From: a virus
Lineage: Duplodnaviria; Heunggongvirae; Uroviricota; Caudoviricetes
Direction: 5' to 3' (one strand)
Virus record (IMG/VR): IMGVR_UViG_2541047762_000007
Length of the DNA stretch: 37,860 nucleotides
This document shows, piece by piece, positions 1-33,654 of the stretch. The notes beneath the pieces are model-generated. The model did no database searches, had not been told where the DNA came from, and was given only the letters and a program-made list of their open reading frames with translations. Numbering within the stretch: position 1 is the first letter of the stretch; every line of letters begins with the position of its first letter. The position numbers and the translations under genes were made by a program.

Positions 1-933
1 TTATGCCGCCAGCACGCGGTTGCGTCCATCATTTTTCGCCCGATACAAAGCATCATCAACGCGTTTAAACAGTTCATCGATGCTTTCATTTCCTTCGTGA
101 TGCGCCACACCAATGCTGACGGTAAAGCGTGGTAAGCCCGAAATACTCACTTTTGCCACGCTTACGCGGATAGTTTCAGCCAGCGAAAGCGCGGTATCCA
201 GTGGGGTTCTTGGTAGCAATAAGACAAACTCTTCGCCTCCCCAACGAAACACCAAATCGCCTTTGCGAGCGCAACTTTCGAGGGTGCGGGCGAGGGCGCA
301 TAACACCTCATCACCTTTAGAATGCCCATAGAGATCGTTAATGTGTTTAAAACGATCGGTGTCGATGAGCAATAAGCTGTAATCCTGAGCGATGGCGAGG
401 TGCTGCATTTGGCCTGGCTCGGTAATGTGGTAAAACTGTCGCCGATTCAGTAATCCGGTCATCGCGTCATGGTGGGCAGCATGTTCCAGCTGCTCCTCCA
501 GCCGTTTTTGCTCAGTAATATCATGCACAATACATAACATGAGCTTGTCGCCATAAATTTCAATCGGCCCAGCATAGGTCTGCACATGACGAGTCGAACC
601 ATCCGCCAGTTTATGAACAAAATTCAAAGGCTTATGGCCACCGGGTAAATGCGAAATTTCATGCATGATAGGCATGACGCGTCGCCCGAGCATATTTATT
701 TCCCAGGTATGTTTCTGGCACATCGTTTCATGGTTATAGCCATAGAAATTGAGCGCGGCGAGGTTAGCATCGACGATTTGGCCATCTCGTGAGGGGTCAA
801 TCAACAACATTGGTGCAGAGTTAGTCAGAAAAAAGCGCGCATAAAAACCTTGTTTTTTGCGCTGATAATTTGCCGAGCGACTGGCTTTTAAACCCAGCGT
901 TGCCGGTGCTTCGATACCTTCGAAAATAATCAC
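1..933 (-). CDS. PAS-GGDEF diguanylate cyclase (host gene; 5' end may be interrupted by prophage)
   Basis: Translation has the GGDEF active-site motif (RWGGEEF) and a PAS-like N-terminal region. Stop codon at 1..3. First codon is GTG at 931..933, and the frame stays open upstream to 982 with no ATG. Confidence 0.85.
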   Translation of the reverse strand: MIIFEGIEAPATLGLKASRSANYQRKKQGFYARFFLTNSAPMLLIDPSRDGQIVDANLAALNFYGYNHETMCQKHTWEINMLGRRVMPIMHEISHLPGGHKPLNFVHKLADGSTRHVQTYAGPIEIYGDKLMLCIVHDITEQKRLEEQLEHAAHHDAMTGLLNRRQFYHITEPGQMQHLAIAQDYSLLLIDTDRFKHINDLYGHSKGDEVLCALARTLESCARKGDLVFRWGGEEFVLLLPRTPLDTALSLAETIRVSVAKVSISGLPRFTVSIGVAHHEGNESIDELFKRVDDALYRAKNDGRNRVLAA

Positions 934-956
934 CGGTTCTGCTTCTGTCAGCTTTC

Positions 957-1003
957 TGATGCGCCGCGCGATAAATGCACTCTATCTTGTGCGATAAATG
1001 GCA
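957..1003. repeat. Putative prophage right terminus with transposase-binding repeats
   Basis: Sequence from 957 (TGATGCGCCGCGCGATAAATGCAC...) resembles the Mu R1/R2 end as I recall it (TGAAGCGGCGCACGAAAAACGC...CGATAAATGCG) and starts with TG. GCGATAAATG occurs twice, at 968..977 and 991..1000. Confidence 0.45.
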
Positions 1004-1034
1004 TCCACGCGGCGTTTCATTATTTGAAAAAGAA

Positions 1035-1607
1035 TTACATTTCAGGTTGCGTTATGACAGTCCCAACAGGGTGGTAGCGGTAGATCGTTGACAGTCCAAT
1101 ATCATAGATAATTGCCAGCCGCTTTCTGTCATACCCTTTCTGGAGCAATCTTGCGATCTGCTCATGCTGCTCCTTCGTCAGTTTCGGGCGACGTCCTCCA
1201 ACTCTCCCTTGTGCTCGCGCAGCAGCCAGTCCTGCCAGCGTGCGCTCAACTATCAGTTCACGCTCCATTTCTGCCAGTGCACCCATCATATGAAAAAAGA
1301 ACCTTCCCATCGGAGTGCTGGTATCGATTGAATCCGTCAGACTGCGAAAATTGACACCTTTTGCGCGTAGCTCTTCTGTGAGAGCAATGAGGTGTTTCAT
1401 TCTTCTACCCAACCGATCCAGCTTCCAGACCACCAATGTATCCCCTCTTTTAAGGCACTTTAAAGCGCGTTTCAGGCCTGGTCGTTCCGACTTGGTTCCG
1501 CTCATTTTGTCCTCAAAAATCTGTTCACATCCTGCGCACATTAATGCATTGCGTTGCAAATCTGTGTTTTGGTCATTTGTTGACACACGTATGTAGCCAA
1601 TCAGCAT
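1035..1607 (-). CDS. gin: Gin/Pin/Hin-family serine DNA invertase
   Basis: Translation from the ATG at 1607 (MLIGYIRVSTNDQNTDLQRNAL...GRRPKLT...) closely matches my recollection of Mu Gin and e14 Pin. The ORF-track start at 1736 is probably an upstream artefact. Confidence 0.9.
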   Translation of the reverse strand: MLIGYIRVSTNDQNTDLQRNALMCAGCEQIFEDKMSGTKSERPGLKRALKCLKRGDTLVVWKLDRLGRRMKHLIALTEELRAKGVNFRSLTDSIDTSTPMGRFFFHMMGALAEMERELIVERTLAGLAAARAQGRVGGRRPKLTKEQHEQIARLLQKGYDRKRLAIIYDIGLSTIYRYHPVGTVITQPEM

Positions 1608-1673
1608 TAAAAATACTCCCTTTTGAGTGGTTAAAGTACTGAGATAATGTGGGGAGGATTTGAGAGATAAACG

Positions 1674-1889
1674 TTGGTTTAGGAGAAGGCTCGGCGCTAC
1701 CCGTTGGTGTGCCTGTTCCGTGGCCCACCGCCACACCGCCAGCAGGCTGGTTAAAGTGCGACGGGCGCGCCTTTACAAAAGAACAATATCCTGTTCTGGC
1801 CAGAGTCTACCCGACCCTCCGTCTTCCCGATTTACGCGGTGAGTTTATCCGTGGATGGGACGACGGGCGCAAAGTTGATACAGGACGTA
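1674..1889. repeat. Left inverted repeat of invertible tail-fibre segment (gix-like site at 1664..1687)
   Basis: About 216 bp here is the near-identical reverse complement of 3061..3279. Its outer end (gagataaacgTTGGTTTAGGAGAA) resembles the Gin/Hin crossover half-site consensus. Confidence 0.7.
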
Positions 1890-2191
1890 AGTTGCTGTCC
1901 GCACAAGGGGCAACGCTGTTAAGAACAGCAATGCTGGATTATTATAACCAGGACACTACGGGAACCTCGGGGATAGTCGGCATGGGATTCAACAATGAAG
2001 ATTCCATTACAGACCTTCGTGAGGGCAGCTTTAAAATGCCGGACGGGACAACATTCAGCAATCCTGCCATGGCAATGTCAGACAATGGTATGCAGGCTAC
2101 TATTCTGACCTCTATCAGAAGCGGGTATGCGAAGGGTATCACTGTCAGACCCCGTAGCATTGCACTTAATTACATTGTGAGGGCAGTTTAA
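1709..2191 (+). CDS. Alternative tail-fibre C-terminal cassette (Sv'-like), promoterless in current orientation
   Basis: The first ~60 aa are nearly identical to the region of the 2812..4398 fibre that begins ~150 aa from its C-terminus (PVPWPTATPPAGWL...LRLPDLRGEFIRGWD), then diverge. It lies inside the invertible segment on the opposite strand. Confidence 0.7.
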   Translation: MPVPWPTATPPAGWLKCDGRAFTKEQYPVLARVYPTLRLPDLRGEFIRGWDDGRKVDTGRKLLSAQGATLLRTAMLDYYNQDTTGTSGIVGMGFNNEDSITDLREGSFKMPDGTTFSNPAMAMSDNGMQATILTSIRSGYAKGITVRPRSIALNYIVRAV

Positions 2192-2805
2192 TGAGTAACA
2201 CTGCAGTTCTGGATGAAAACGGTATCGCCACTGTAGCGGGCGATATCACTGTATATCACTATGACGAGGAAACCCGGGAATACACCTCATCCTCTGTGGA
2301 GTATCTCGCCCTTGGGGTGGGTACTCCGGCACATTCGTGCGCCGATGCACCGCCGGAAGCAATTTCGGGTTACGTGGTTTGCCGGACTGCCACGCTGAAC
2401 GGGTGGGAGCATGTGCCTGATCACCGCGGCGAGACGGTATACAGCACGGAGAACGGTAACCCCGTTCTGATTACCCAACCGGGTGATTACCCGGCGGACA
2501 CCACCACAAAACAGCCAGCCACGCCATGGGATACCTGGAACGGTGAGGCGTGGGTAACCGATACTGAACGGCAGCGAGCCGCAGAACTGGAGGTTGCCAG
2601 ACAGCAACGCCAGCAACGGGTGAAACAGGCGATGGCGTCCGTCGATCTTATCAACCTCAAACTGCGTGCTGGTCGCAGTCTGAAACCAGAAGAAACGGCA
2701 AAACTGAACGCCGTGCTGGATTATATCGACGAGCTGAACGCACTGGATATCAGCAAGGCACCTGAAATCAGCTGGCCGGAAGCGCCACTGGCGCTTGCCG
2801 GCTGA
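2191..2805 (+). CDS. Tail fibre assembly protein (Tfa/U-like)
   Basis: Position directly after the alternative fibre cassette (TAATG overlap), ~200 aa, composition typical of lambda Tfa / Mu U chaperones. Confidence 0.75.
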   Translation: MSNTAVLDENGIATVAGDITVYHYDEETREYTSSSVEYLALGVGTPAHSCADAPPEAISGYVVCRTATLNGWEHVPDHRGETVYSTENGNPVLITQPGDYPADTTTKQPATPWDTWNGEAWVTDTERQRAAELEVARQQRQQRVKQAMASVDLINLKLRAGRSLKPEETAKLNAVLDYIDELNALDISKAPEISWPEAPLALAG

Positions 2806-2811
2806 ACGGTA

Positions 2812-4398
2812 TCACGCCGCCCTCACGATATAGTTAAATGCGATATTGCGGGGGCGAGCTGATACATAAGCCCACCAGTCATATCTTTGTGCACCTTTAG
2901 AGGATGCATCAAATATCCACTTTTTGCCATTTATGACCCCCAGTTGATTAGAGGTTAAAGCGTCACCAAATCCGTATTGTGTAGAGCCGAGCGAACTGAT
3001 ATCTCCGGTATTATTATCATCAAAACCGGATACGATAGTCCCTTCCTGAAATGAAAGTACCGTACGCCCGGTATCAACCTTGCGACCACCGTCCCATCCA
3101 CGGATAAACTCACCGCGCAAATCGGGAAGACGGAGGGTCGGGTAGACTCTGGCCAGAACAGGATATTGTTCTTTGGTGAACGTAGCTCCGTTGCACTGTA
3201 ACCAGCCTGCTGGCGGTGTGGCGGTGGGCCATGGAACCGGTACACCAACAGGCAATGCAGAGCCTTCCCCCAAACCAAGGTAATTGAGGACATCTTTTAT
3301 ACTGCCCTTAGCGATAATAGCGCGACCAATAGCTGTAAGGGTTGCCAGCGCTGCGCGGTCTGCTCCGGTAAAATAAGGCAACCGATCTGCTGCAGTGGCA
3401 AGTCCTGCCAGAGCAGTGAGCGTGGCATCTGCCGGTTGTTTTCCGTTTGCCAGATCGTATGCAGCCTTGACGGCCTTTGGTGTGGCGGCCAGCGTTTCAG
3501 ACGTGCTGTTGATGGCGCTGCTCAATTGTACGGTGCCTTTTGCCGTCAGCGAGGCAGCAGGCACTCCCGTTATCTGACTCCACGGGTGAGTGTGGCTGAC
3601 GGGCGCCTTGCCGGCTGCAAGGTCGTATGCAGCCTTGACGGCCTTTGGTGTGGCGGCCAGCGTTTCAGACGTGCTGTTGATGGCGCTGCTCAATTGTACG
3701 GTGCCTTTTGCCGTCAGCGAGGCAGCAGGCACTCCCGTTATCTGACTCCACGGGTGAGTGTGGCTGACGGGCGCCTTGCCGGCTGCAAGGTCGTATGCAG
3801 CCTTGACGGCCTTTGGTGTGGCGGCCAGCGTTTCAGACGTGCTGTTGATGGCACTGCTCAGTTGTACGATCCCTTTACGGGTCGTTGTTGCATCCTGGGC
3901 TGTGTATTTTCCCCGGGCCAGATCATACGCGATTTTCACAGCCTTCGGCGTGGCAGCCTCAGTTTCTGATTGACTGTCCGTGGCACTGCTCAGCTGTACG
4001 GTGCCTTTTGCCGTCAGCGAGGCAGCAGGCACTCCCGTTATCTGACTCCACGGGTGAGTGTGACTGACGGGTGCCTTGCCGGCTGCAAGGTCGTATGCAG
4101 CCTTGACGGCTTTTGGTGTGGCGGCCAGCGTTTCAGAGGTGCTGTTGGTGGCACTGCTCAGTTGGGTGAACCCCTTAGCTGTCAGTGTCGCGTCCGGGTG
4201 GTTACGGGAACGTACGTGTTCAGCCAGTGACTGTGCGGCTTCCTCCGTTTTTTTCTTCAGCCATTTCGTCCTGTTTGCCAGTTGCCGGGGGGCTCGATTT
4301 GATATCCCGTCTGCACCACCCAGAACCGGATCTGATGTCTCCAGTTGATAGATATTTTCTTCCCACTTTTCTGTTTCATTCAGGTTTCCCATAATCAA
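2812..4398 (-). CDS. Tail fibre protein with internal tandem repeats
   Basis: 528-aa ORF with repeated fibre motifs (TAKGTVQLSSAxxSTSETLAATPKAVKAAYDLA, SHTHPW). C-terminal part lies inside the invertible segment. Position matches Mu S. Confidence 0.9.
   Translation of the reverse strand: MIMGNLNETEKWEENIYQLETSDPVLGGADGISNRAPRQLANRTKWLKKKTEEAAQSLAEHVRSRNHPDATLTAKGFTQLSSATNSTSETLAATPKAVKAAYDLAAGKAPVSHTHPWSQITGVPAASLTAKGTVQLSSATDSQSETEAATPKAVKIAYDLARGKYTAQDATTTRKGIVQLSSAINSTSETLAATPKAVKAAYDLAAGKAPVSHTHPWSQITGVPAASLTAKGTVQLSSAINSTSETLAATPKAVKAAYDLAAGKAPVSHTHPWSQITGVPAASLTAKGTVQLSSAINSTSETLAATPKAVKAAYDLANGKQPADATLTALAGLATAADRLPYFTGADRAALATLTAIGRAIIAKGSIKDVLNYLGLGEGSALPVGVPVPWPTATPPAGWLQCNGATFTKEQYPVLARVYPTLRLPDLRGEFIRGWDGGRKVDTGRTVLSFQEGTIVSGFDDNNTGDISSLGSTQYGFGDALTSNQLGVINGKKWIFDASSKGAQRYDWWAYVSARPRNIAFNYIVRAA
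3061..3290. repeat. Right inverted repeat of invertible tail-fibre segment (gix-like site at 3265..3290)
   Basis: Reverse complement matches 1674..1889. TTCCCCCAAACCAAGG at 3265..3280 is the inverted partner of the left site. Confidence 0.7.
3440..4200. repeat. 168-bp (56-aa) tandem repeats within tail fibre gene
   Basis: Three near-identical units are in register at ~3455, 3623 and 3791, followed by two more diverged units. The plus-strand shadow ORF 3436..3969 shows the same period. Confidence 0.85.
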
Positions 4399-4973
4399 CT
4401 GCTCCCGTGGTTATAACTGCCATCATGGATGGCAGTATTGTTATAGCGAATGGCCACAGACTGATACTCCAGGCTGGCCAGATGGCAGCGGGCCGGTGCA
4501 AATGCAGCCAGCGTCTGACGCAGCATCGCGGCCTGATCGTTAGTAATGGGCTGTTTCAGAATAACGCGATAAACTGCCCAGGCGGCTGCATCTCCATGAA
4601 CAAACAGTCCGTTATAGCTGCGATTGCCGTCGTAACTGAGACGACCTGTGCCTTCAATCAGATCCACTTCACCAAAGCCAAAACGGCGGATAACTTCCCG
4701 GATTGACCACGGCGTCCCTTTATACCGGTGCAGTTCGATGGCTGCTTTTATAAGCATGCGGCGAACATCGTCCGATTCCGCCAGCTCCCAGCCATCGCCA
4801 GACAGTGAGAACTGCTCGCCCAGCCATGGCAGCGCGGAACTGTCGACGATATCGACGAGAAAGACCATCAGTACGCTCAGGTCGATGTTATCCAGCCGTC
4901 CTGCCAGTCTTCCCAGCGTCCTGAGACTGATATCACCCTCAAGCGGTGGCGGGAGTTGTAATGGCTCAGTCAT
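4395..4973 (-). CDS. Baseplate protein (P2 gpI / Mu gp48-like)
   Basis: Size and position between the baseplate J-like gene and the tail fibre; overlaps its neighbours. Confidence 0.7.
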   Translation of the reverse strand: MTEPLQLPPPLEGDISLRTLGRLAGRLDNIDLSVLMVFLVDIVDSSALPWLGEQFSLSGDGWELAESDDVRRMLIKAAIELHRYKGTPWSIREVIRRFGFGEVDLIEGTGRLSYDGNRSYNGLFVHGDAAAWAVYRVILKQPITNDQAAMLRQTLAAFAPARCHLASLEYQSVAIRYNNTAIHDGSYNHGSS

Positions 4974-6069
4974 CAGACACTCCAGTCATGTTAAGAGTGA
5001 TTGCCGTACAGTTTGCCCATTCGTTTTCTGCCACCACCCGCAGTGCCGGTGTCACCAGTTCAACCTGGTACACCCCGGAAACGGACAATGCACTGATAAT
5101 CTGGCTGGGGACAATATCGCGCCCCAGCGTGGCGGCACGTGATGCCACCCAGTTCTGTATGGCGCTGTTAGCGGCATCTTTTACAGACCTGGCATCCTGA
5201 TCACGATAGATCGTAATCCTGGCTTCAATGGTGTAATCCACCTTCACTGGTGTTTTAGCCCGCACTGTATCAGTGAGTGGCCTGACTTTCTCATCAGAGC
5301 AGAAACTCTCTACCAGCGTGAGAACACCGCCGTCCGGCAGACCGGTACTGAGCAGCGGATACAGATCTACGGTCCCGGGAACCGGGGAAAGCACAGCAAC
5401 ATCGACAATGTTGGGATGGGCCTGCATGGCATGAAAGCGGTATGCGCCACGGCTTCCGGCATTGGTGAATGACTCCGGGGCCAGCCTGATACGCTCCCGG
5501 AGCCTGTCATCGTCTTCCTGTTCTGAACCGCCGGAACTGGCCGTCAGATTGCTCACCAGCAGGTCGACGTTATCAATCTCATCGAGTAACTGACTGACCT
5601 GCGCAGGTTGCCAGCCGTTACCAGCGGTACCGGGTTCGGTACAGGTGGACGTGACATTGACCAGCAGCAATCCGGCCTTCAGTACCACATCTGTATCGGT
5701 GGCAAAAATAACGCTGTCGGAAGCGCTGACGCGGGTGCCTGCCGGGATCAGCACATCAATGGCCAGTGCCTCATCTACGGAGAACTGGAGCGTGGTGGTG
5801 GCAGGCTGCGCGGCAAGACGGTATACACCGACCAGTTCACCGAGGTAATCAATCATCGGCTCACGGGCAAAGGCGACCAGATTCTGCTTTGCTGCCTCCT
5901 GTACCGCAACCCTGACCAGCATTTCGCGATAGGCCCACAGATCAATCAGCAGACGTTCTGCCTGTGCCGGGTACAGCGTTTTGCCGGTATCCGCTTCATA
6001 CTTCGCAATCATTTCTGCCGTGATTTTGTCGGCATCGCGTTCAATAAAATCGGGTTCTGTCAGCGCCAT
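4966..6069 (-). CDS. Baseplate J-like protein (Mu gp47 / P2 gpJ-like)
   Basis: 367 aa, position and composition match baseplate J family; translationally coupled to neighbours. Confidence 0.8.
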   Translation of the reverse strand: MALTEPDFIERDADKITAEMIAKYEADTGKTLYPAQAERLLIDLWAYREMLVRVAVQEAAKQNLVAFAREPMIDYLGELVGVYRLAAQPATTTLQFSVDEALAIDVLIPAGTRVSASDSVIFATDTDVVLKAGLLLVNVTSTCTEPGTAGNGWQPAQVSQLLDEIDNVDLLVSNLTASSGGSEQEDDDRLRERIRLAPESFTNAGSRGAYRFHAMQAHPNIVDVAVLSPVPGTVDLYPLLSTGLPDGGVLTLVESFCSDEKVRPLTDTVRAKTPVKVDYTIEARITIYRDQDARSVKDAANSAIQNWVASRAATLGRDIVPSQIISALSVSGVYQVELVTPALRVVAENEWANCTAITLNMTGVSDD

Positions 6070-6407
6070 AGCAGCTCCTGAGTCCGGGTCTGTCCGTCTG
6101 AGCCTTTCCAGCTCACCCGGAGCGTAAGATGTTCGCCGTCGACGGCGGGTTTAACTGACATAAGCTGGCAGCGGGGCTCCCAGCGCCGGATGGCATCGAC
6201 GGATTCGCGCACCACATGCGGAATGGCCCGGTCTACAGGCCAGTCGATATAAAGATGCAGATTGCTGCCGAACTCCGGGCGATGCGGGTCGCTGCCGCGG
6301 GGAGTCCGCAGGATAATTTGAATCGCCTGCCGGATATCATCCAGCCCCCGGACAATTTCGCCGGGAGCCTGCAGAGTTGGTTGCCAGAATACTGAGGTCG
6401 TTTTCAT
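6060..6407 (-). CDS. Baseplate wedge protein (gpW/gp25-like)
   Basis: 115 aa with gpW/gp25-like features (GSDPHRPEFGS...), located upstream of the J-like gene. Confidence 0.75.
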   Translation of the reverse strand: MKTTSVFWQPTLQAPGEIVRGLDDIRQAIQIILRTPRGSDPHRPEFGSNLHLYIDWPVDRAIPHVVRESVDAIRRWEPRCQLMSVKPAVDGEHLTLRVSWKGSDGQTRTQELLWR

Positions 6408-6532
6408 GGAGGCAGTATTGCCCCCGTGCGGGAACGCTGATATTAAAGGGATTTAAAAAAACGTAAAATGGTTGAGCTTATTGAAAAACAGCCAATATTG
6501 TTAATTAATAATCACCTGAAAACGGAGGTTTT

Positions 6533-6718
6533 ATGAAGAAAAAATTTTTTCAGATGACAAATAAAAGTCATTTCATTAACCCGGAACACATCGTTGAAGC
6601 ATACTTTACAGTTAAAGGTACTTTCGAAATAACACTTTCAACAGGTAAGAAAATTCAACTCGACGAAAGCGAAAGCAAGTATCTGATGGATGTATTTGAT
6701 TTTGAGAAGCCACTCTAA
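6533..6718 (+). CDS. Small AT-rich moron ORF (61 aa), unknown function
   Basis: Antisense to the surrounding baseplate operon. Strong SD (ACGGAGG) 5 nt before the ATG, AT-rich upstream region with -10-like TAAAAT, and an intrinsic terminator immediately downstream. Confidence 0.55.
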   Translation: MKKKFFQMTNKSHFINPEHIVEAYFTVKGTFEITLSTGKKIQLDESESKYLMDVFDFEKPL

Positions 6719-6727
6719 TTGCCAGTG

Positions 6728-6751
6728 AGGCCGCCCGGTGCGGCCTTTTTT
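6728..6751 (+). terminator. Rho-independent terminator of the moron ORF
   Basis: GC hairpin AGGCCGC-CCGGT-GCGGCCT followed by a T-run (6746..6751). Confidence 0.75.
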
Positions 6752-6755
6752 CATA

Positions 6756-7352
6756 TCAATGAGAATGGTGATTAGAGTTAGAGCCATCAGACAGCATACT
6801 GCCCGTGGCATGGGCATTCCCTTTAATCTCGATATTGCCATGGATGGTCGCGGTAACACCTTTACCACCAGAACCCGCCATGCCTCCTTCGTAAATCAGC
6901 TTTCCCCTGACACGCAGCTCTCCGGTAAGTTCGGTTTCCGGTGCGTCAATCGTGGCTTTCTGTGTTTTCAATACCACATCAGCACCACACTCAATGACAA
7001 TATGCTCAATGCCGCCCCGGATGGTCAGAGTGTGCGTCTTCCGGTTGTAGCTGTACTCTGCACCATCAGCAAACCGGGTTCCCCGGATATTTTTGTCACT
7101 GAACGGTGGTTTATCGACGTCTGAATACACCGCGCCCAGAATAACACCATCCTCGCCGTTGGCATCGAGCAGCACCTCAACCTGCTCCCCCACGTCAGGG
7201 AGCCAGTAATCTTTGTTATCCTGGGTATTGCGCTGCAGCACGTTAAGCCAGTTTGTGCGCAGGTTATCGCATTCAGGCAGACGAACGCGGGCCTGAACCC
7301 TGTCGGCATCAACGGCACTGACCGTACCGACCTGACGAGTGACACCAGTCAT
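6756..7352 (-). CDS. Baseplate spike/hub protein (P2 gpV / Mu gp45-like)
   Basis: 198 aa with glycine-rich, His-rich C-terminus typical of gpV spikes; sits between the gpD-like and gpW-like genes. Confidence 0.75.
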   Translation of the reverse strand: MTGVTRQVGTVSAVDADRVQARVRLPECDNLRTNWLNVLQRNTQDNKDYWLPDVGEQVEVLLDANGEDGVILGAVYSDVDKPPFSDKNIRGTRFADGAEYSYNRKTHTLTIRGGIEHIVIECGADVVLKTQKATIDAPETELTGELRVRGKLIYEGGMAGSGGKGVTATIHGNIEIKGNAHATGSMLSDGSNSNHHSH

Positions 7353-29789: not shown

Positions 29790-30704
29790 ATGGGACGCAC
29801 CAAATCACCCGTTAACACTGAACTGAATGTTGAGGTTCCGCTGTCAGATAACATCAATGTCAATTTGAACGCTATGACACAGCATCGCATGGAAATTATG
29901 CAGCAGTTTGGTGATGGACTGCCTTATGAACGTGATCGCATTGTTCACGAAGCACGTTTTTATATGGCGCAGAGTGCTGAATCTATGCTGGAAGCAGGTA
30001 AGCGGCTGATCATCTTAAAAGAAAATGAGCCACACGGTGATTTTACAAACATTTTAGAAAATGAACTCGGACTTGCACCACAAGTTGCTCGCCGCATGAT
30101 GCAAGCCAGTATGAAGTTTTTGGGAGAAGGTGATGAGCCAACAAAACGCTCAACGTTGAGCGTTTTGGGGAAAGCCAAACTGTACGACCTGATGGTTCTG
30201 GATAATGAAGAACTTGATGAATTGGCCGACGGCGGCACAGTTGCCGGCCTGACGCTTGACGACGTTGATCGCATGTCAGTACGTGAATTGCGTCAGGCCC
30301 TGCGCGAAGCGCGCGAAACCAACGCAGCACAACAGCGCGTACTCGCCGACAAAAATGAAAAAATAGATTCACTCTCCACCAGACTGGAGAAGAAATCCCG
30401 TATTCAGCCGCCTGAGCCTGATGAGGAGGTTAAGAAGCTGCGGGCGGAAGTAACAGCATTAGCGGTTGAGGCGGAATCTGCTATCGCCGTCCGACTGTCC
30501 AGCGCTTTTGAGACGCTGTGCGCATATTGTGCTGAAAACATGATTGATACCCCCAGAGACTTCATGGCAGGCCTGGTCTGTCAACTGGAAAGCACAGCGC
30601 GTAGCCTGCGCTCCACATTTGACCTGCCGGACGAGCCAACAGGCAATGCAGCGCCTTCATGGCTGACTGAGCCGACGCCACAGATTAACGGGCTGGAGGC
30701 ATAA
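29790..30704 (+). CDS. Early protein of unknown function
   Basis: 304-aa ORF coupled to the upstream gene and immediately preceding the transposase. Confidence 0.55.
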   Translation: MGRTKSPVNTELNVEVPLSDNINVNLNAMTQHRMEIMQQFGDGLPYERDRIVHEARFYMAQSAESMLEAGKRLIILKENEPHGDFTNILENELGLAPQVARRMMQASMKFLGEGDEPTKRSTLSVLGKAKLYDLMVLDNEELDELADGGTVAGLTLDDVDRMSVRELRQALREARETNAAQQRVLADKNEKIDSLSTRLEKKSRIQPPEPDEEVKKLRAEVTALAVEAESAIAVRLSSAFETLCAYCAENMIDTPRDFMAGLVCQLESTARSLRSTFDLPDEPTGNAAPSWLTEPTPQINGLEA

Positions 30705-30707
30705 CCA

Positions 30708-32477
30708 ATGAATGCTGCCCTGACTGAACGACTGGTTTATGTCGCCCGCGCGGCACGTGACGCGGGGCATGGTAAACGCGGTGCAATATACGACGCTGCC
30801 TGTGCTGAACTTGGCATGTCCCGCGCCACTCTGCTGCGCAGGCTGAAGGAGGTCTCTGTGACTGATAAACGCAAAAAACGCGCCGATGCCGGGCGCAGCG
30901 CCCTGACCCGCGACGAAGCCGCGCTGATATCTGCCACACTGCGTGAGGCCACCCGCAAGAACGGTAAGCGTCTCTATTCCATCGCGGATGCAGTGGAAAC
31001 CCTGCGGGCTAACGGCTTTATCTCCGCAGGCAGAACAGATGAAACCACCGGTGAGTTTTTCCCGTTGTCCGAAGATGCCATCAGCCGAGCCCTGCGTAAC
31101 TATGGCCTGCACCCGGAACAACTGGATGCCCCTGCACCACATACTGAAGTGGCCAGTCTGCATCCCAATCATGTCTGGCAGATTGATGCCTCGCTCTGCA
31201 CGCTTTACTACCTGAGTAATGGACACAAAGGACTGCAGGTGATGGACAGCGCGAAGTTCTACAAGAACAAGCCCGCTAACCTTGCCCGTATCGCCAGTGA
31301 CCGCGTGTGGAGTTACGAGATTACCGACCATGCCAGCGGCTGGATTTACGTTGAGTATGTGACGGGTGCGGAATCCGGTGAGAACCTGTGTTCTGTGCTT
31401 ATCAACGCCATGCAGGAGCGTGGCGGCGCAGACGTGCTGCACGGCGTGCCAAAAATACTCTATCTCGACCCCGGCTCGGCAAACACCGCGGGTATGACGA
31501 AAAACATGTGCCGCTCACTGGGCATTGACCTGATAGCGCACAAGCCGCATAACGCCCGCGCCACCGGACAGGTGGAAAAGGCGCGTGACATTATCGAACG
31601 CAAGCTGGAGCCGGGTCTGAAGTTCCGGCCGGTTCACAGTCTGGAAGAACTCAACGCGCTGGCCGCGAAATGGCGCAGCCACTTTAACGCCACGGCTGTT
31701 CACAGCCGCCACGGTAAAACCCGCACGGATATCTGGCTGAAGATTACTACTGAGCAGCTGAAAAAAGCGCCTTCCGTTGAGGTATGTCGTGAACTGGCTG
31801 TGGCGGCACCAGAACTCCGCAAAGTCACGCCAAAACTTCGTGTCTCGTTCCGGGGCACTGAATTTGACGTATCAACGGTACCGGGCGTACTGGTCGGTGA
31901 AAAACTGATGATTACCCGTAACCCGTGGCGCAGCGATGTGGCACAGGTGGTTCTGACCGGTGAGGACGGCCACGAGACGTTCTTCCTGGTCGAAGAGGTC
32001 AGAAAGAACGAGTTTGGCTTTGCTGAAGGCGCGGCGGTATTTGGCGAAAGTTACAAAGCCCTGCCGGAAACACCGGCGCAGACGGCGGCAAAAGAAACTG
32101 AAGCGCTGGTCACCGGTACAGACAACGCCACAGATGCAGCTGCCGCACGCAAGGCGAAGGCGCTGCCGTTCGGCGGGCGGCTTGACCCGTATAAACATAT
32201 TGATGACGCCACACTTCCGGCCTATATGCCGAAGCGCGGTCAGGCCTCTGACGTACGCGGGCCGCGCACTGAACAACGTCCCATGACTCATGTGGAGGCC
32301 GCGAAAGCCCTGCGCGATAAGTTCAGCGCCGACGGCCTTACCTGGACGCCGGAACATTACCGCCAGTTAACGGCACAGTACCCGGACGGCGTACCGGAAG
32401 CCGCACTGGATGAAGTCATGGCCACGCTGACCACGCCGGCACGCAGCAGTGTTATCAGCATTGTTAACGGCAACTGA
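30708..32477 (+). CDS. DDE transposase (Mu A-like)
   Basis: 589 aa with N-terminal HTH-like region and an integrase-type catalytic core (HVWQIDAS, LYLDPGSANTA, ATGQVEKA); followed by a MuB-like ATPase. Confidence 0.8.
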   Translation: MNAALTERLVYVARAARDAGHGKRGAIYDAACAELGMSRATLLRRLKEVSVTDKRKKRADAGRSALTRDEAALISATLREATRKNGKRLYSIADAVETLRANGFISAGRTDETTGEFFPLSEDAISRALRNYGLHPEQLDAPAPHTEVASLHPNHVWQIDASLCTLYYLSNGHKGLQVMDSAKFYKNKPANLARIASDRVWSYEITDHASGWIYVEYVTGAESGENLCSVLINAMQERGGADVLHGVPKILYLDPGSANTAGMTKNMCRSLGIDLIAHKPHNARATGQVEKARDIIERKLEPGLKFRPVHSLEELNALAAKWRSHFNATAVHSRHGKTRTDIWLKITTEQLKKAPSVEVCRELAVAAPELRKVTPKLRVSFRGTEFDVSTVPGVLVGEKLMITRNPWRSDVAQVVLTGEDGHETFFLVEEVRKNEFGFAEGAAVFGESYKALPETPAQTAAKETEALVTGTDNATDAAAARKAKALPFGGRLDPYKHIDDATLPAYMPKRGQASDVRGPRTEQRPMTHVEAAKALRDKFSADGLTWTPEHYRQLTAQYPDGVPEAALDEVMATLTTPARSSVISIVNGN

Positions 32478-32487
32478 GGAGGAAAAC

Positions 32488-33654
32488 ATGCTGGTACTGA
32501 AGCAGCAACTGAAAGAGGCCCGTATCTCACAGGCGGTGGTGGCGAGAGCTGTCGATGTTTCTGAGGCCACGCTGGCCCAGATTGTGAATCATAACGCGTG
32601 GCCCCGCACCCGCCCCGGAGAAGTGCGCCGGCGTCTTGCGTCCTGGCTGGAAAGTCAGGGGATTGATACAACGAAGAGTTTTGATGCTGTACAGGTCGCG
32701 GCCACGCCCCGTACAGCGGGTACCACAGACAAAACGAGCCTCAGTGAGGAAGAGAATATGTTACTCAAAAAACAGGTGTTATTTCCAGCAACCAAAAAAG
32801 CGTTTGGTCTTTTCCGTGACCCGTTCGCCGATGAAGCCATGCAGGGTTCTGATGATGTGTTCACCACCCCGGACATCCGCTATGTGCGTGAGGCGCTGTA
32901 CCAGACAGCCCGTCATGGTGGATTTATGGCCGTCATCGGTGAGTCCGGTGCGGGCAAATCCACGCTGCGCCGCGACCTGACTGAACGTATCAACCGCGAG
33001 AATGCGCCGGTAATTGTTATCGAGCCATACGTCATCGCCATGGAAGACAACGATGTGAAAGGAAAAACCCTGAAGGCTGCAGCGATTGCCGAAGCCATTA
33101 TCAGTACCATCGCACCACTGGAAAGCATCAGACGCAGTCAGGACGCCCGCTTTCGCCAGTTGCATCGCGTCCTGAAAGACAGCAGCCAGGCGGGGTTCAG
33201 CCACGTTCTGGTGATTGAGGAGGCCCACAGTCTGCCCGTTCCGACACTGAAACACCTCAAACGCTTTTTTGAGCTGGAGTCCGGTTTCAAAAAGCTGCTG
33301 TCCATTGTGCTGATTGGCCAGCCGGAACTGGCGACAAAACTGTCTGAACGCAATATGGAAGTCCGTGAAGTCGTTCAGCGCTGTGAGGTGGTCGAACTTC
33401 TGCCTCTGGACAATAACCTTGAAGAATTTCTGACGTTCAAACTGCAACGGGCCGGTAAACAACTGACGGACATTATGGACGCCAGCGCAGTGGATGCCAT
33501 ACGTGCCCGCCTGAGCAATCCGGGAAGTCATCGTAAAAATATGGTCAGCCTGCTGTATCCGCTGGCCGTCAGTAACCTGGTAATAGCCGCCATGAATCTG
33601 GCCGCTGAAATCGGGGTTCCACAGGTCAACGCTGACGTTGTCAAAGGGGTTTAA
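32488..33654 (+). CDS. Transposition ATPase (Mu B-like AAA+)
   Basis: Walker A GESGAGKST, Walker B-like VLVIEEAH, N-terminal HTH-like region. Start taken at ATG 32488 after GAGGAGG. Confidence 0.8.
   Translation: MLVLKQQLKEARISQAVVARAVDVSEATLAQIVNHNAWPRTRPGEVRRRLASWLESQGIDTTKSFDAVQVAATPRTAGTTDKTSLSEEENMLLKKQVLFPATKKAFGLFRDPFADEAMQGSDDVFTTPDIRYVREALYQTARHGGFMAVIGESGAGKSTLRRDLTERINRENAPVIVIEPYVIAMEDNDVKGKTLKAAAIAEAIISTIAPLESIRRSQDARFRQLHRVLKDSSQAGFSHVLVIEEAHSLPVPTLKHLKRFFELESGFKKLLSIVLIGQPELATKLSERNMEVREVVQRCEVVELLPLDNNLEEFLTFKLQRAGKQLTDIMDASAVDAIRARLSNPGSHRKNMVSLLYPLAVSNLVIAAMNLAAEIGVPQVNADVVKGV

What the first reader, a model, noticed from the sequence alone, without database searches (positions are those of the whole stretch)
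1664..3290. Gin-controlled invertible tail-fibre segment is asymmetric: only one variant has a chaperone
Inverted repeats of ~216 bp (1674..1889 and 3061..3279), with gix-like sites at their outer ends, flank a ~1.6-kb segment next to the invertase. In the current orientation the fibre is fused to the 2812..3264 C-terminus, and no assembly chaperone follows on the expressed strand. The alternative C-terminus (1709..2191) carries a Tfa-like gene (2191..2805). In Mu, each orientation has its own Sv/U pair, so this differs.
Basis: partly seen in the sequence, partly recalled or inferred. Interest (0 to 1): 0.65.

Follow-up and report, generated by a model that had tools for sequence, protein, structure and literature searches.

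The report
Invertible tail-fibre switch with one chaperone
A working DNA-flipping switch in an E. coli prophage swaps the tip of the tail fibre between two versions but carries only one fibre-assembly chaperone gene; this layout is the normal design of a large, already described family of such switches, although how the single chaperone serves the second tip is still unknown.

Summary
A Gin-like serine invertase (1035-1607, 76% identical to Mu Gin) sits beside a 1,603-bp segment. The segment is bounded by 229-nt inverted repeats with gix-like sites at their outer ends (1662-1687, 3265-3290). It holds two collar-type fibre tips (B 1709-2191; C 2812-3264, now fused) and a single tfa (2191-2805), which is antisense to the fibre operon in this orientation. 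No second tfa exists anywhere in the window.

Inversion is real. My in-silico flipped junction matches about 241 complete E. coli genomes, and the present junction about 303. Two pairs of sister isolates differ only by an exact inversion at these sites.

The asymmetry is not peculiar to this locus. In 35 of 35 related all-collar arrays (2-9 cassettes) there is exactly one tfa, always in the pivot block. A second tfa appears only when the other cassette has a different fold (e14/P2-like loci).

Tfa proteins at least 85% identical follow unrelated tips, and the same tip occurs both with and without an adjacent tfa. This points to one class-level chaperone. How the C orientation obtains it, or whether it needs it, is unresolved.

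Verdict: a minimal two-cassette member of a known kind (Mu G / p15B Min family), of moderate interest.

The parts
1035..1607 (-). Gin/Din-family serine DNA invertase, 190 aa (MLIGYIRVSTNDQ...)
   Evidence: Resolvase domain E = 1.2e-50 and HTH_7. 76% identical to Mu Gin over 181 aa. RefSeq annotates the same 573-nt gene as a recombinase.
1608..1661 (.). Spacer between the invertase gene and the crossover site, presumably holding the invertase promoter. Also contains a candidate extended -10 element (TGAGATAAT, 1640-1648, + strand) that would read into B-tfa.
   Evidence: Read from the sequence. Inference only: the consensus promoter scan found nothing here, and the motif is confined to this invertase subclass.
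1662..1687 (.). Invertase-proximal gix-like crossover site, central TT at 1674-1675
   Evidence: The core TTCYCCYAAACCAACGTTT is conserved in 65 distinct upstream regions. It is the inversion end point in both sister-genome pairs.
1671..1899 (.). Left arm of the inverted repeat; encodes the conserved collar part of tip B
   Evidence: 229 nt, 86% complementary to the right arm.
1709..2191 (+). Tip cassette B, currently unfused. Its reading frame is open from 1664. Position 'B*': always directly followed by tfa.
   Evidence: Collar PF07484, E = 3.9e-15. Becomes the C-terminus of a 545-aa fibre after inversion. Seen fused in strain MS1737.
2191..2805 (+). The only tail-fibre assembly (Tfa) gene, 204 aa; antisense to the fibre operon in this orientation
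   Evidence: PF02413, E = 5.6e-27. 55-61% identical to HK97, HK106 and P2-like Tfa proteins. Unique in the window.
2812..3264 (-). Tip cassette C, currently fused to the fibre (variable part about 2812-3052). Position 'R1': convergent with tfa, stop codons 6 bp apart.
   Evidence: Collar domain. Matches the phiTE short tail fibre 9cuy (E = 1.1e-15) and the T4 gp37 tip 2xgf (E = 7.5e-13), including the terminal NIAFNYIVR motif.
3053..3281 (.). Right arm of the inverted repeat
3265..3290 (.). Fibre-proximal gix-like crossover site, central AA at 3277-3278, inside codons ...LGLGEG...
   Evidence: It is the inversion end point between MS1737 and MS1494.
3291..4398 (-). Constant N-terminal part of the fibre gene (whole ORF 2812-4398, 528 aa), with tandem 56-aa repeats
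   Evidence: Five Phage_fiber_2 repeats. Direct-repeat family D1 at 3449-4198.
4395..4973 (-). P2 gpI-like baseplate wedge gene immediately upstream of the fibre (operon context)
   Evidence: Tail_P2_I, E = 1.2e-24.

Best explanation
SHOWN. This is an active Gin/Din-family site-specific inversion switch at the end of a transposable (Mu-like) myovirus prophage. The invertase recombines two inverted 26-bp gix-like sites and flips 1,603 bp. This exchanges the last ~150-160 residues of the tail fibre between tips B and C. Both tips are collar-type (T4 gp37 / lambda Stf-like) receptor-binding modules. They share the collar-coding 5' part, which is why the repeats are 229 nt long, and they share the terminal ...NYIVRA motif. 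The block [B > tfa > < C] contains no internal crossover site. B is therefore always followed by tfa, and C can never be co-transcribed with tfa from the fibre operon. The locus is the minimal two-cassette form of the collar-cassette arrays found in P1/p15B-like plasmids and in P2-like and Mu-like prophages, which carry 2-9 cassettes and one tfa in the pivot block.

INFERRED (my commitment). The single Tfa is a class-level chaperone for all collar-type tips. It probably acts through the conserved collar and C-terminal elements, not the variable receptor-binding part. A second copy is therefore dispensable, and C is a functional tip. In the present orientation tfa would have to be transcribed from the invertase side. 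A candidate extended -10 element (TGAGATAAT, 1640-1648) reads through site 1 and B into tfa. That last step is the weakest.
For: Inversion: the synthetic flipped junction matches about 241 complete E. coli records in a single piece at 99.5% identity, and the present junction about 303. U13A and U14A are identical over 8,822 nt apart from an exact inversion; MS1737 and MS1494 are identical over 8,244 nt apart from an exact inversion. Both inversions end at the predicted sites (annotation).

Architecture: in 35 of 35 all-collar arrays there is exactly one full tfa, always between the forward and reverse cassettes.

One Tfa per fold class: 16 loci carry a second, divergent tfa, and none of the 16 maps shows a collar cassette on that side. 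In the one locus examined, L030, the other cassette is Gp53-like_C with its own 146-aa PF02413 protein.

Generalist Tfa: Tfa proteins are 56-100% identical along their whole length. In 79 pairs, Tfa proteins at least 85% identical sit behind tips whose variable regions are less than 40% identical.

Tips are interchangeable between positions: 6 of 19 distinct R1 variable regions have a twin at least 95% identical that is directly followed by tfa elsewhere, and 6 of 19 have such a twin in other positions.

R1 tips look functional: 39 of 44 are full length, there are 27 distinct proteins, and dN/dS of the variable region is about 0.10.

Collar tips normally come with a Tfa: in non-invertible phages (HK97, HK106, pro483, Kp4845-2, 500465-1/-2, 683R1) the homologous tip is immediately followed by the homologous tfa.

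Literature: PMC9659904 reports that gp37/Stf-type tips are always followed by a gp38/Tfa gene, and that lambda Tfa can substitute for T4 gp38.
Against: There is no evidence that tfa is expressed when it points away from the fibre operon. The consensus scan found no sigma-70 promoter in 900-4600 on the + strand. The candidate extended -10 element is my reading of the sequence, it overlaps the likely invertase promoter, and it is not conserved in the other invertase subclasses.

If one Tfa must serve every tip, a position that is inverted in about half of the states (10 co-directional, 9 antisense) is a poor design.

The dN/dS pairs are not independent. Purifying selection on R1 tips could also be imported from other positions, because cassettes are exchanged between arrays.

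The correlation between tip identity and Tfa identity is not zero (r = 0.66 for B*, 0.57 for R1), so some co-adaptation cannot be excluded.
Confidence: 0.5

Rival explanations
1. Tip C, and R1 or other unpaired cassettes in general, folds without the phage Tfa. It would fold on its own, with host chaperones, or with a Tfa from a co-resident prophage. The resident Tfa would then work essentially for tip B, possibly staying on the fibre as an accessory adhesin as reported for Mu.
For: C can never be co-transcribed with tfa, yet R1 tips are intact and constrained. No promoter for tfa was found in this orientation. From memory: a T4 gene 37 mutation that bypasses gp38 is known, and T4 gp12 (collar domain) needs gp57A but not gp38. 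PMC13280938 raises 'chaperone not essential' as one option for xenorhabdicin fibres.
Against: Tips nearly identical to R1 tips are directly paired with tfa in other loci. The closest non-invertible relatives of the variable region of C all have a tfa downstream. If collar tips did not need Tfa, some arrays should have lost it. In fact 35 of 35 keep exactly one.
Confidence: 0.25
2. The C orientation yields unassembled or poorly assembled fibres, i.e. a non-infective or 'off' state. Cassette C would persist because its crossover site is needed for any inversion and because cassettes are continually exchanged with arrays in which they can be used.
For: Topology forbids co-expression of tfa with R1 (reasoning in the report). 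Collar tips normally come with a Tfa. Cassettes move between positions and arrays. The two-cassette E. coli prophages are 96-99% identical, so they are too recent to show decay. In the Enterobacter phage FRphi only one of three locked isoforms was infective on the tested host (PMC13418256), although that result may simply reflect host range.
Against: In a two-cassette array the whole switch would then halve infective yield with no benefit. R1 variable regions show the strongest constraint of all positions (dN/dS 0.10 against 0.17-0.19), and 39 of 44 are intact.
Confidence: 0.2
3. There is no programmed inversion. The repeats would merely be two paralogous collar domains, and the orientation would be fixed.
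For: None beyond the fact that the repeats are coding sequence.
Against: Both orientations occur in hundreds of genomes. Sister isolates differ only by an exact inversion that ends in the gix-like sites.
Confidence: 0.01

Closest known systems
Phage Mu G segment with Gin (and the P1 C segment with Cin)
   Same: The invertase is 76% identical to Gin. The 26-bp sites resemble gix. The switch lies at the prophage end, downstream of the baseplate and fibre operon, with the invertase reading away from it. A constant fibre N-terminus lies outside the segment and alternative C-termini inside it.
   Different: Mu has two convergent chaperone genes (U and U'), one per variant; this locus has one. The tips and the Tfa show no detectable similarity to Mu S/S'/U/U'. 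Here the repeats are 229 nt because both tips share a collar module, whereas from memory the Mu G repeats are only about 34 bp (not tested). No com/mom module follows the invertase.
Min multiple-inversion region of plasmid p15B and related P1-like phage-plasmids
   Same: The same collar-type cassettes, each starting with a crossover site, and the same Tfa family (55-72% identical). A single tfa sits in the pivot block. From memory of Sandmeier et al. 1990-92: six crossover sites, six alternative 3' ends, a 3.5-kb invertible region and a truncated psi-min beside min. This fits the loci that carry an invertase fragment next to the invertase.
   Different: Those arrays have 3-9 cassettes and at least three sites, giving many isomers. 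The window has two cassettes, two sites and two states, and sits in a transposable prophage rather than a P1-like plasmid. I could not read the original papers, so whether they discuss the single tfa is unknown.
Pin P-segment of e14 and P2-like prophage switches (example: L030)
   Same: A Din-family invertase, and a collar-type tip followed by a 200-aa TfaE-like chaperone 58% identical to the window Tfa.
   Different: The second cassette there has a different fold (Gp53-like_C) and brings its own 146-aa Tfa, so that switch is symmetric in chaperones.
T4 gp37-gp38 and lambda Stf-Tfa receptor-binding modules
   Same: The cassette matches the gp37 tip in its collar and in the terminal NIAFNYIVR motif. 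The Tfa is PF02413. In non-invertible phages tip and tfa are adjacent (PMC9659904). Cross-complementation (lambda Tfa for gp38) supports a chaperone that is not tip-specific.
   Different: Those are fixed one-tip, one-chaperone modules with no inversion.
Tail-fibre shufflon of Enterobacter phage FRphi (PMC13418256) and the three-repeat P2-like prophage of EPEC (PMC4272514)
   Same: Gin-type inversion with three C-termini in four states. The 50/25/25% isoform ratio is what the topology of the three-cassette relatives of this prophage (L004, L005, L011, L012) predicts.
   Different: They have three cassettes. Neither paper mentions the chaperone question. I did not have the FRphi sequence to compare.

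Membership tests
Din-family (Gin/Cin/Pin/Hin/Min) invertase switch | Small serine recombinase with a resolvase catalytic domain and a C-terminal HTH | tested here: met
   PF00239 E = 1.2e-50 and PF02796 E = 1.7e-12. 76% identical to Mu Gin. The YIRVSTNDQ motif is present.
Din-family (Gin/Cin/Pin/Hin/Min) invertase switch | Two inverted 26-bp crossover sites with a gix/hix-like half-site and identical central dinucleotides | tested here: met
   Sites at 1662-1687 and 3265-3290. Inner half-sites match Mu gix at 9 of 12 positions; central dinucleotide AA/TT.
Din-family (Gin/Cin/Pin/Hin/Min) invertase switch | The segment is actually found in both orientations with precise end points | tested here: met
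   About 241 records in the flipped orientation and about 303 in the present one. Exact inversions between U13A/U14A and between MS1737/MS1494.
Din-family (Gin/Cin/Pin/Hin/Min) invertase switch | Fis-dependent recombinational enhancer in the 5' part of the invertase gene | tested here: inconclusive
   The first 228 nt are 78% identical to the Mu gin 5' region, where (from memory) the enhancer lies. Fis sites were not mapped.
Mu G / P1 C segment architecture | Each orientation has its own variable fibre part plus its own Tfa (Sv-U and S'v-U') | tested here: not met
   Only one tfa in the window. Mu layout taken.
Mu G / P1 C segment architecture | Variable parts and chaperones homologous to Mu S/S'/U/U' | tested here: not met
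   No significant blastp matches; only the Phage_fiber_2 repeats in the constant part are shared.
Collar-cassette (Min-type) arrays | Alternative C-termini are collar-type cassettes, each preceded by a crossover site and ending in ...NYIVRA | tested here: met
Collar-cassette (Min-type) arrays | A single tfa in the pivot block between forward and reverse cassettes | tested here: met
   The window map is INV< c> TFA> FIB-c<, the same as in 35 of 35 survey arrays.
Collar-cassette (Min-type) arrays | Three or more crossover sites giving multiple inversions | tested here: not met
   The window has two cassettes and two sites. Close relatives have three.
Caudo_TAP tail-fibre assembly proteins | PF02413 domain, with the gene directly after a fibre tip | tested here: met
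   E = 5.6e-27, residues 79-199. TAATG overlap with tip B. Chaperone activity itself cannot be tested with these tools.
T4 gp37 / lambda Stf receptor-binding tips | Collar domain at the start of the tip and a conserved C-terminal strand (NIAFNYIVR) returning to it | tested here: met
   Sequence matches to 2xgf at both ends of the cassette and to 9cuy over the whole cassette. The fold itself was not modelled.
Transposable (Mu-like) phages | DDE transposase plus AAA+ partner, Mu-type portal, and many different insertion sites | tested here: met
   rve, AAA_22 and Portal_Mu. The same prophage lies next to yebS, flgA, aroA, an FCD-domain gene and an NAD(P)H oxidoreductase gene in different genomes.

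The most novel reading that the evidence does not exclude
The single tfa in the pivot block is a shared chaperone that is transcribed in both orientations. The late fibre operon would read it from one side, and a promoter beside the invertase would read it from the other, through the unfused cassettes. If so, collar-cassette arrays of any size need only one chaperone gene, which would be a general design rule for these switches that has not been described. A related unexcluded reading is that gp37/Stf-type tips in the R1 position fold without any Tfa.
Probability: 0.3. Interest if true: 0.55.

Novelty: new member of a known kind. Interest (0 to 1): 0.4.

Why it matters
Host-range engineering of phages, tailocins and phage-derived delivery particles relies on swapping fibre tips. 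A recurring practical problem is whether each new tip needs its own chaperone. These natural arrays suggest that one Tfa can serve many unrelated collar-type tips. The two-cassette E. coli prophage, for which sister isolates in each orientation are available, is a simple system to test that. It also shows that hundreds of complete E. coli genomes record an arbitrary snapshot of a flipping locus, which affects annotation: orphan 'phage tail protein' genes, pseudogene calls and contig breaks.

Tried and rejected
1. A second or degenerate tfa. A profile of 87 Tfa sequences run with --max over all six frames of the window found only 2191-2805.

2. A hidden chaperone on the expressed strand. The 109-aa antisense ORF 2287-2616 is not conserved; the median longest stop-free antisense stretch in 45 tfa genes is about 61 aa.

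3. A sigma-70 promoter for tfa in this orientation. The consensus scan found none. Alignment of 65 regions between invertase and crossover site showed no array-facing motif shared by the subclasses.

4. Homology of the tips and Tfa to Mu S/S'/U/U'. None was found.

5. A solved structure related to the Tfa by sequence. None was found.

6. R1 tips as a special chaperone-independent class. Rejected, because near-identical tips occur directly upstream of tfa in other loci.

7. The scan of species-representative genomes gave only five loci, most ending at the array, so the survey rests on IMG/VR prophage contigs.

8. The Sandmeier 1992 paper on p15B Min was not available, so statements about p15B rest on memory plus the plasmid search.

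9. Structure prediction was not run. Monomer models of an intertwined trimer and its chaperone would not settle the question.
Full report
WHAT IS THERE. The left end of the window holds a host GGDEF gene (1-933, -). It is followed by the end of a prophage whose late genes all run on the minus strand: P2 gpD/V/W/J/I-like baseplate genes, then a 528-aa fibre gene (2812-4398), and finally a 190-aa serine recombinase (1035-1607).
- Between fibre and recombinase, on the plus strand, lie an orphan collar-domain ORF (1709-2191) and a PF02413 tail-fibre assembly gene (2191-2805). The start of that gene overlaps the stop of the orphan ORF (TAATG).
- The repeat finder reports inverted arms at 1671-1899 and 3053-3281, 229 nt and 86% complementary.
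- At their outer ends lie two 26-bp sites, 1662-1687 and 3265-3290. They read TTCTCCTAAACC AA CGTTTATCTCTC and TTCCCCCAAACC AA GGTAATTGAGGA in the same relative sense. Mu gix reads TTCCTGTAAACC GA GGTTTTGGATAA.
- The recombinase is 76% identical to Mu Gin.

DOES IT INVERT? I built the flipped sequence in silico and searched its invertase-proximal junction against 5,426 complete E. coli genomes.
- About 241 records contain the flipped junction in one piece at 99.5% identity. About 303 contain the junction as it is in the window.
- Urinary isolates U13A and U14A are identical over 8,822 nt except for a block that is an exact reverse complement.
- Chicken isolates MS1737 and MS1494 carry the same two-cassette layout as the window at the same insertion site. 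They are identical over 8,244 nt except for an exact inversion whose ends fall in the two predicted sites.
- RefSeq annotates a 587-aa fibre followed by a co-directional tfa in MS1737, and a 570-aa fibre with tfa on the other strand in MS1494.
- Inverting 1675-3277 in the window yields an intact 545-aa fibre ending in tip B, with tfa directly behind it.
- PMC4272514 reports PCR-confirmed flipping in a Mu prophage and in P2-like prophages of other E. coli strains.

IS THERE REALLY ONLY ONE CHAPERONE? Yes.
- A profile built from 87 Tfa sequences, run without filters on every reading frame of the 37.86-kb window, finds only 2191-2805. A cassette profile finds only B and C.
- The 109-aa ORF antisense to tfa is not conserved in 45 diverged tfa genes.
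- Mu, in contrast, has S-U and S'-U'.

WHAT THE PARTS ARE.
- The tips are not Mu-like. Cassette C matches the short tail fibre of phage phiTE (9cuy, E = 1.1e-15; paper identified). It also matches the T4 gp37 tip (2xgf, E = 7.5e-13), at the collar and again at the terminal NIAFNYIVR.
- The Tfa is 55-61% identical to the Tfa of HK97, HK106, P2-like phages and Klebsiella prophages. In all of those the homologous tip is directly followed by tfa.
- The closest phage relatives of the variable part of C alone (36-40% identity: mEp043, mEp213, 500465-2, 683R1) are fibre tips. For 500465-2 and 683R1, one search places a tfa immediately downstream.
- PMC9659904 describes this gp37/Stf family as always followed by a gp38/Tfa gene, and recalls that lambda Tfa can replace T4 gp38.
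- The prophage is a transposable phage. It has an rve transposase, an AAA_22 partner and a Mu-type portal, and it is inserted at many different chromosomal sites in different strains.

HOW UNUSUAL IS THE ASYMMETRY? I fetched 80 viral contigs and 5 genome contigs encoding invertases 70-100% identical to this one. I mapped cassettes, tfa genes and invertases on them with iterated profiles.
- Thirty-five loci are arrays made only of collar cassettes with cassettes on both sides of tfa. They hold 2-9 cassettes and exactly one full tfa.
- In 35 of 35 the tfa lies at the pivot between forward-pointing and reverse-pointing cassettes.
- Where the fused cassette is visible, tfa is co-directional with the fibre in 10 loci and antisense in 9.
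- Sixteen loci carry a second, divergent tfa, and none of their maps shows a collar cassette on that side. In the one locus I examined, L030 (a P2-like prophage), the other cassette is a Gp53-like_C tip with its own 146-aa PF02413 protein. This is the e14 / P2-like layout.
- Four loci are complex (two arrays, or a broken tfa).
- The multi-cassette arrays occur in about 95-100-kb non-mobilizable E. coli plasmids. From memory of the p15B literature, this identifies them as Min-type regions of P1-like phage-plasmids.
- So the window is the smallest member of a widespread and long-sequenced family, and one chaperone per array is the norm.

TOPOLOGY. Crossover sites lie only at the 5' ends of cassettes, so the block [B* > tfa > < R1] cannot be split.
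- B* (cassette B here) always has tfa behind it.
- R1 (cassette C here) can never have tfa co-directional when it is fused.
- Any further cassettes can be in either situation.
- In three-cassette relatives this gives four states, with the extra tip fused in two of them. That matches the 50/25/25% isoform ratio measured for phage FRphi (PMC13418256).

IS R1 A REAL TIP, AND IS TFA TIP-SPECIFIC?
- R1 cassettes are intact in 39 of 44 cases, with 27 distinct proteins. All positions end in ...FNYIVRA(A).
- Pairwise dN/dS of the variable region is about 0.10 for R1, 0.19 for B* and 0.17 for other positions. The pairs are not independent.
- R1 tips are not a special class. Six of 19 distinct R1 variable regions have a twin at least 95% identical in the B* position of another locus, and six have such a twin in other positions.
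- The Tfa proteins form one family, 56-100% identical over both halves.
- In 79 pairs, Tfa proteins at least 85% identical follow tips whose variable regions are less than 40% identical.
- Together with the 'second tfa only with a second fold' pattern, this argues that Tfa recognises what collar tips share, not what distinguishes them. That explains why one copy suffices in terms of specificity.

WHAT REMAINS UNEXPLAINED. In the window's orientation tfa is antisense to the fibre operon.
- The consensus scan finds no plus-strand promoter.
- I see an extended -10-like TGAGATAAT at 1640-1648 that would read through site 1 and B into tfa. It overlaps the probable invertase promoter and is not conserved in other invertase subclasses, so it is only a lead.
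- Three readings remain. (a) Shared Tfa expressed independently of orientation (0.5 including the class-level chaperone claim). (b) C folds without the phage Tfa (0.25). (c) The C state is defective, and C is maintained by exchange with other arrays (0.2).
- PMC13280938 poses the same alternative, common chaperone or chaperone not essential, for xenorhabdicin fibres.

VERDICT. Its value is as a clean, naturally bistable system for asking whether one Tfa serves many collar-type tips. Interest 0.4.

Noticed in passing
window 940-1034: The prophage end maps to about 956/957 (TGATGCGCC...), because matches in genomes with other insertion sites start there. Two copies of GCGATAAATG lie 23 bp apart (968-977 and 991-1000); they are possibly transposase end-binding sites.
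   Followed up: partly
window 29790-33654 versus 1035-28721: The early and transposition genes (DUF3102, rve transposase 30708-32477, AAA_22 ATPase 32449-33654) are on the + strand and diverge from the late genes on the - strand. This differs from the single-direction order of Mu and, from memory, resembles BcepMu-type transposable phages.
   Followed up: partly
window 3449-4198: The constant part of the fibre contains tandem 168-nt (56-aa) repeats. Fibre length differs between otherwise near-identical prophages (528, 570 and 630 aa with C-type tips; 587 aa with tip B in MS1737), probably mostly through repeat copy-number changes; copy numbers were not counted.
   Followed up: no
L004 and L005 (E. 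coli U13A/U14A, ST131-type three-cassette prophage), 5383-6955: RefSeq annotates the fibre gene here as several partial pseudogenes, so the copy of this prophage in these strains may carry a disrupted fibre even though its segment still inverts.
   Followed up: no
L007-L009, L014, L021-L024, L027 and others: Many draft contigs end at or just outside the invertase and array, as expected if mixed orientations break short-read assemblies. This biases any survey of these loci towards complete genomes.
   Followed up: no
L025, L073-L090 (e.g. L086 7705-7881): A truncated invertase fragment (59-102 aa) lies just beyond the 84%-identical invertases on the opposite strand in most of these loci (same strand in L078). 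From memory, this resembles the psi-min remnant described beside min in p15B.
   Followed up: no
L052 (3483-7561), L088 (1-3585): These are the only loci with two full tfa genes among collar cassettes. They look like two pivot blocks in tandem (L052) or an array with a second fibre constant part inside it (L088).
   Followed up: no
window 2695-2714 (- strand): A weak terminator-like hairpin about 100 nt past the stop codon of tip C, inside antisense tfa. Four such sites were found in the region, exactly the number expected by chance, so it is probably meaningless. It would be worth checking if convergent transcription across tfa is ever tested.
   Followed up: no
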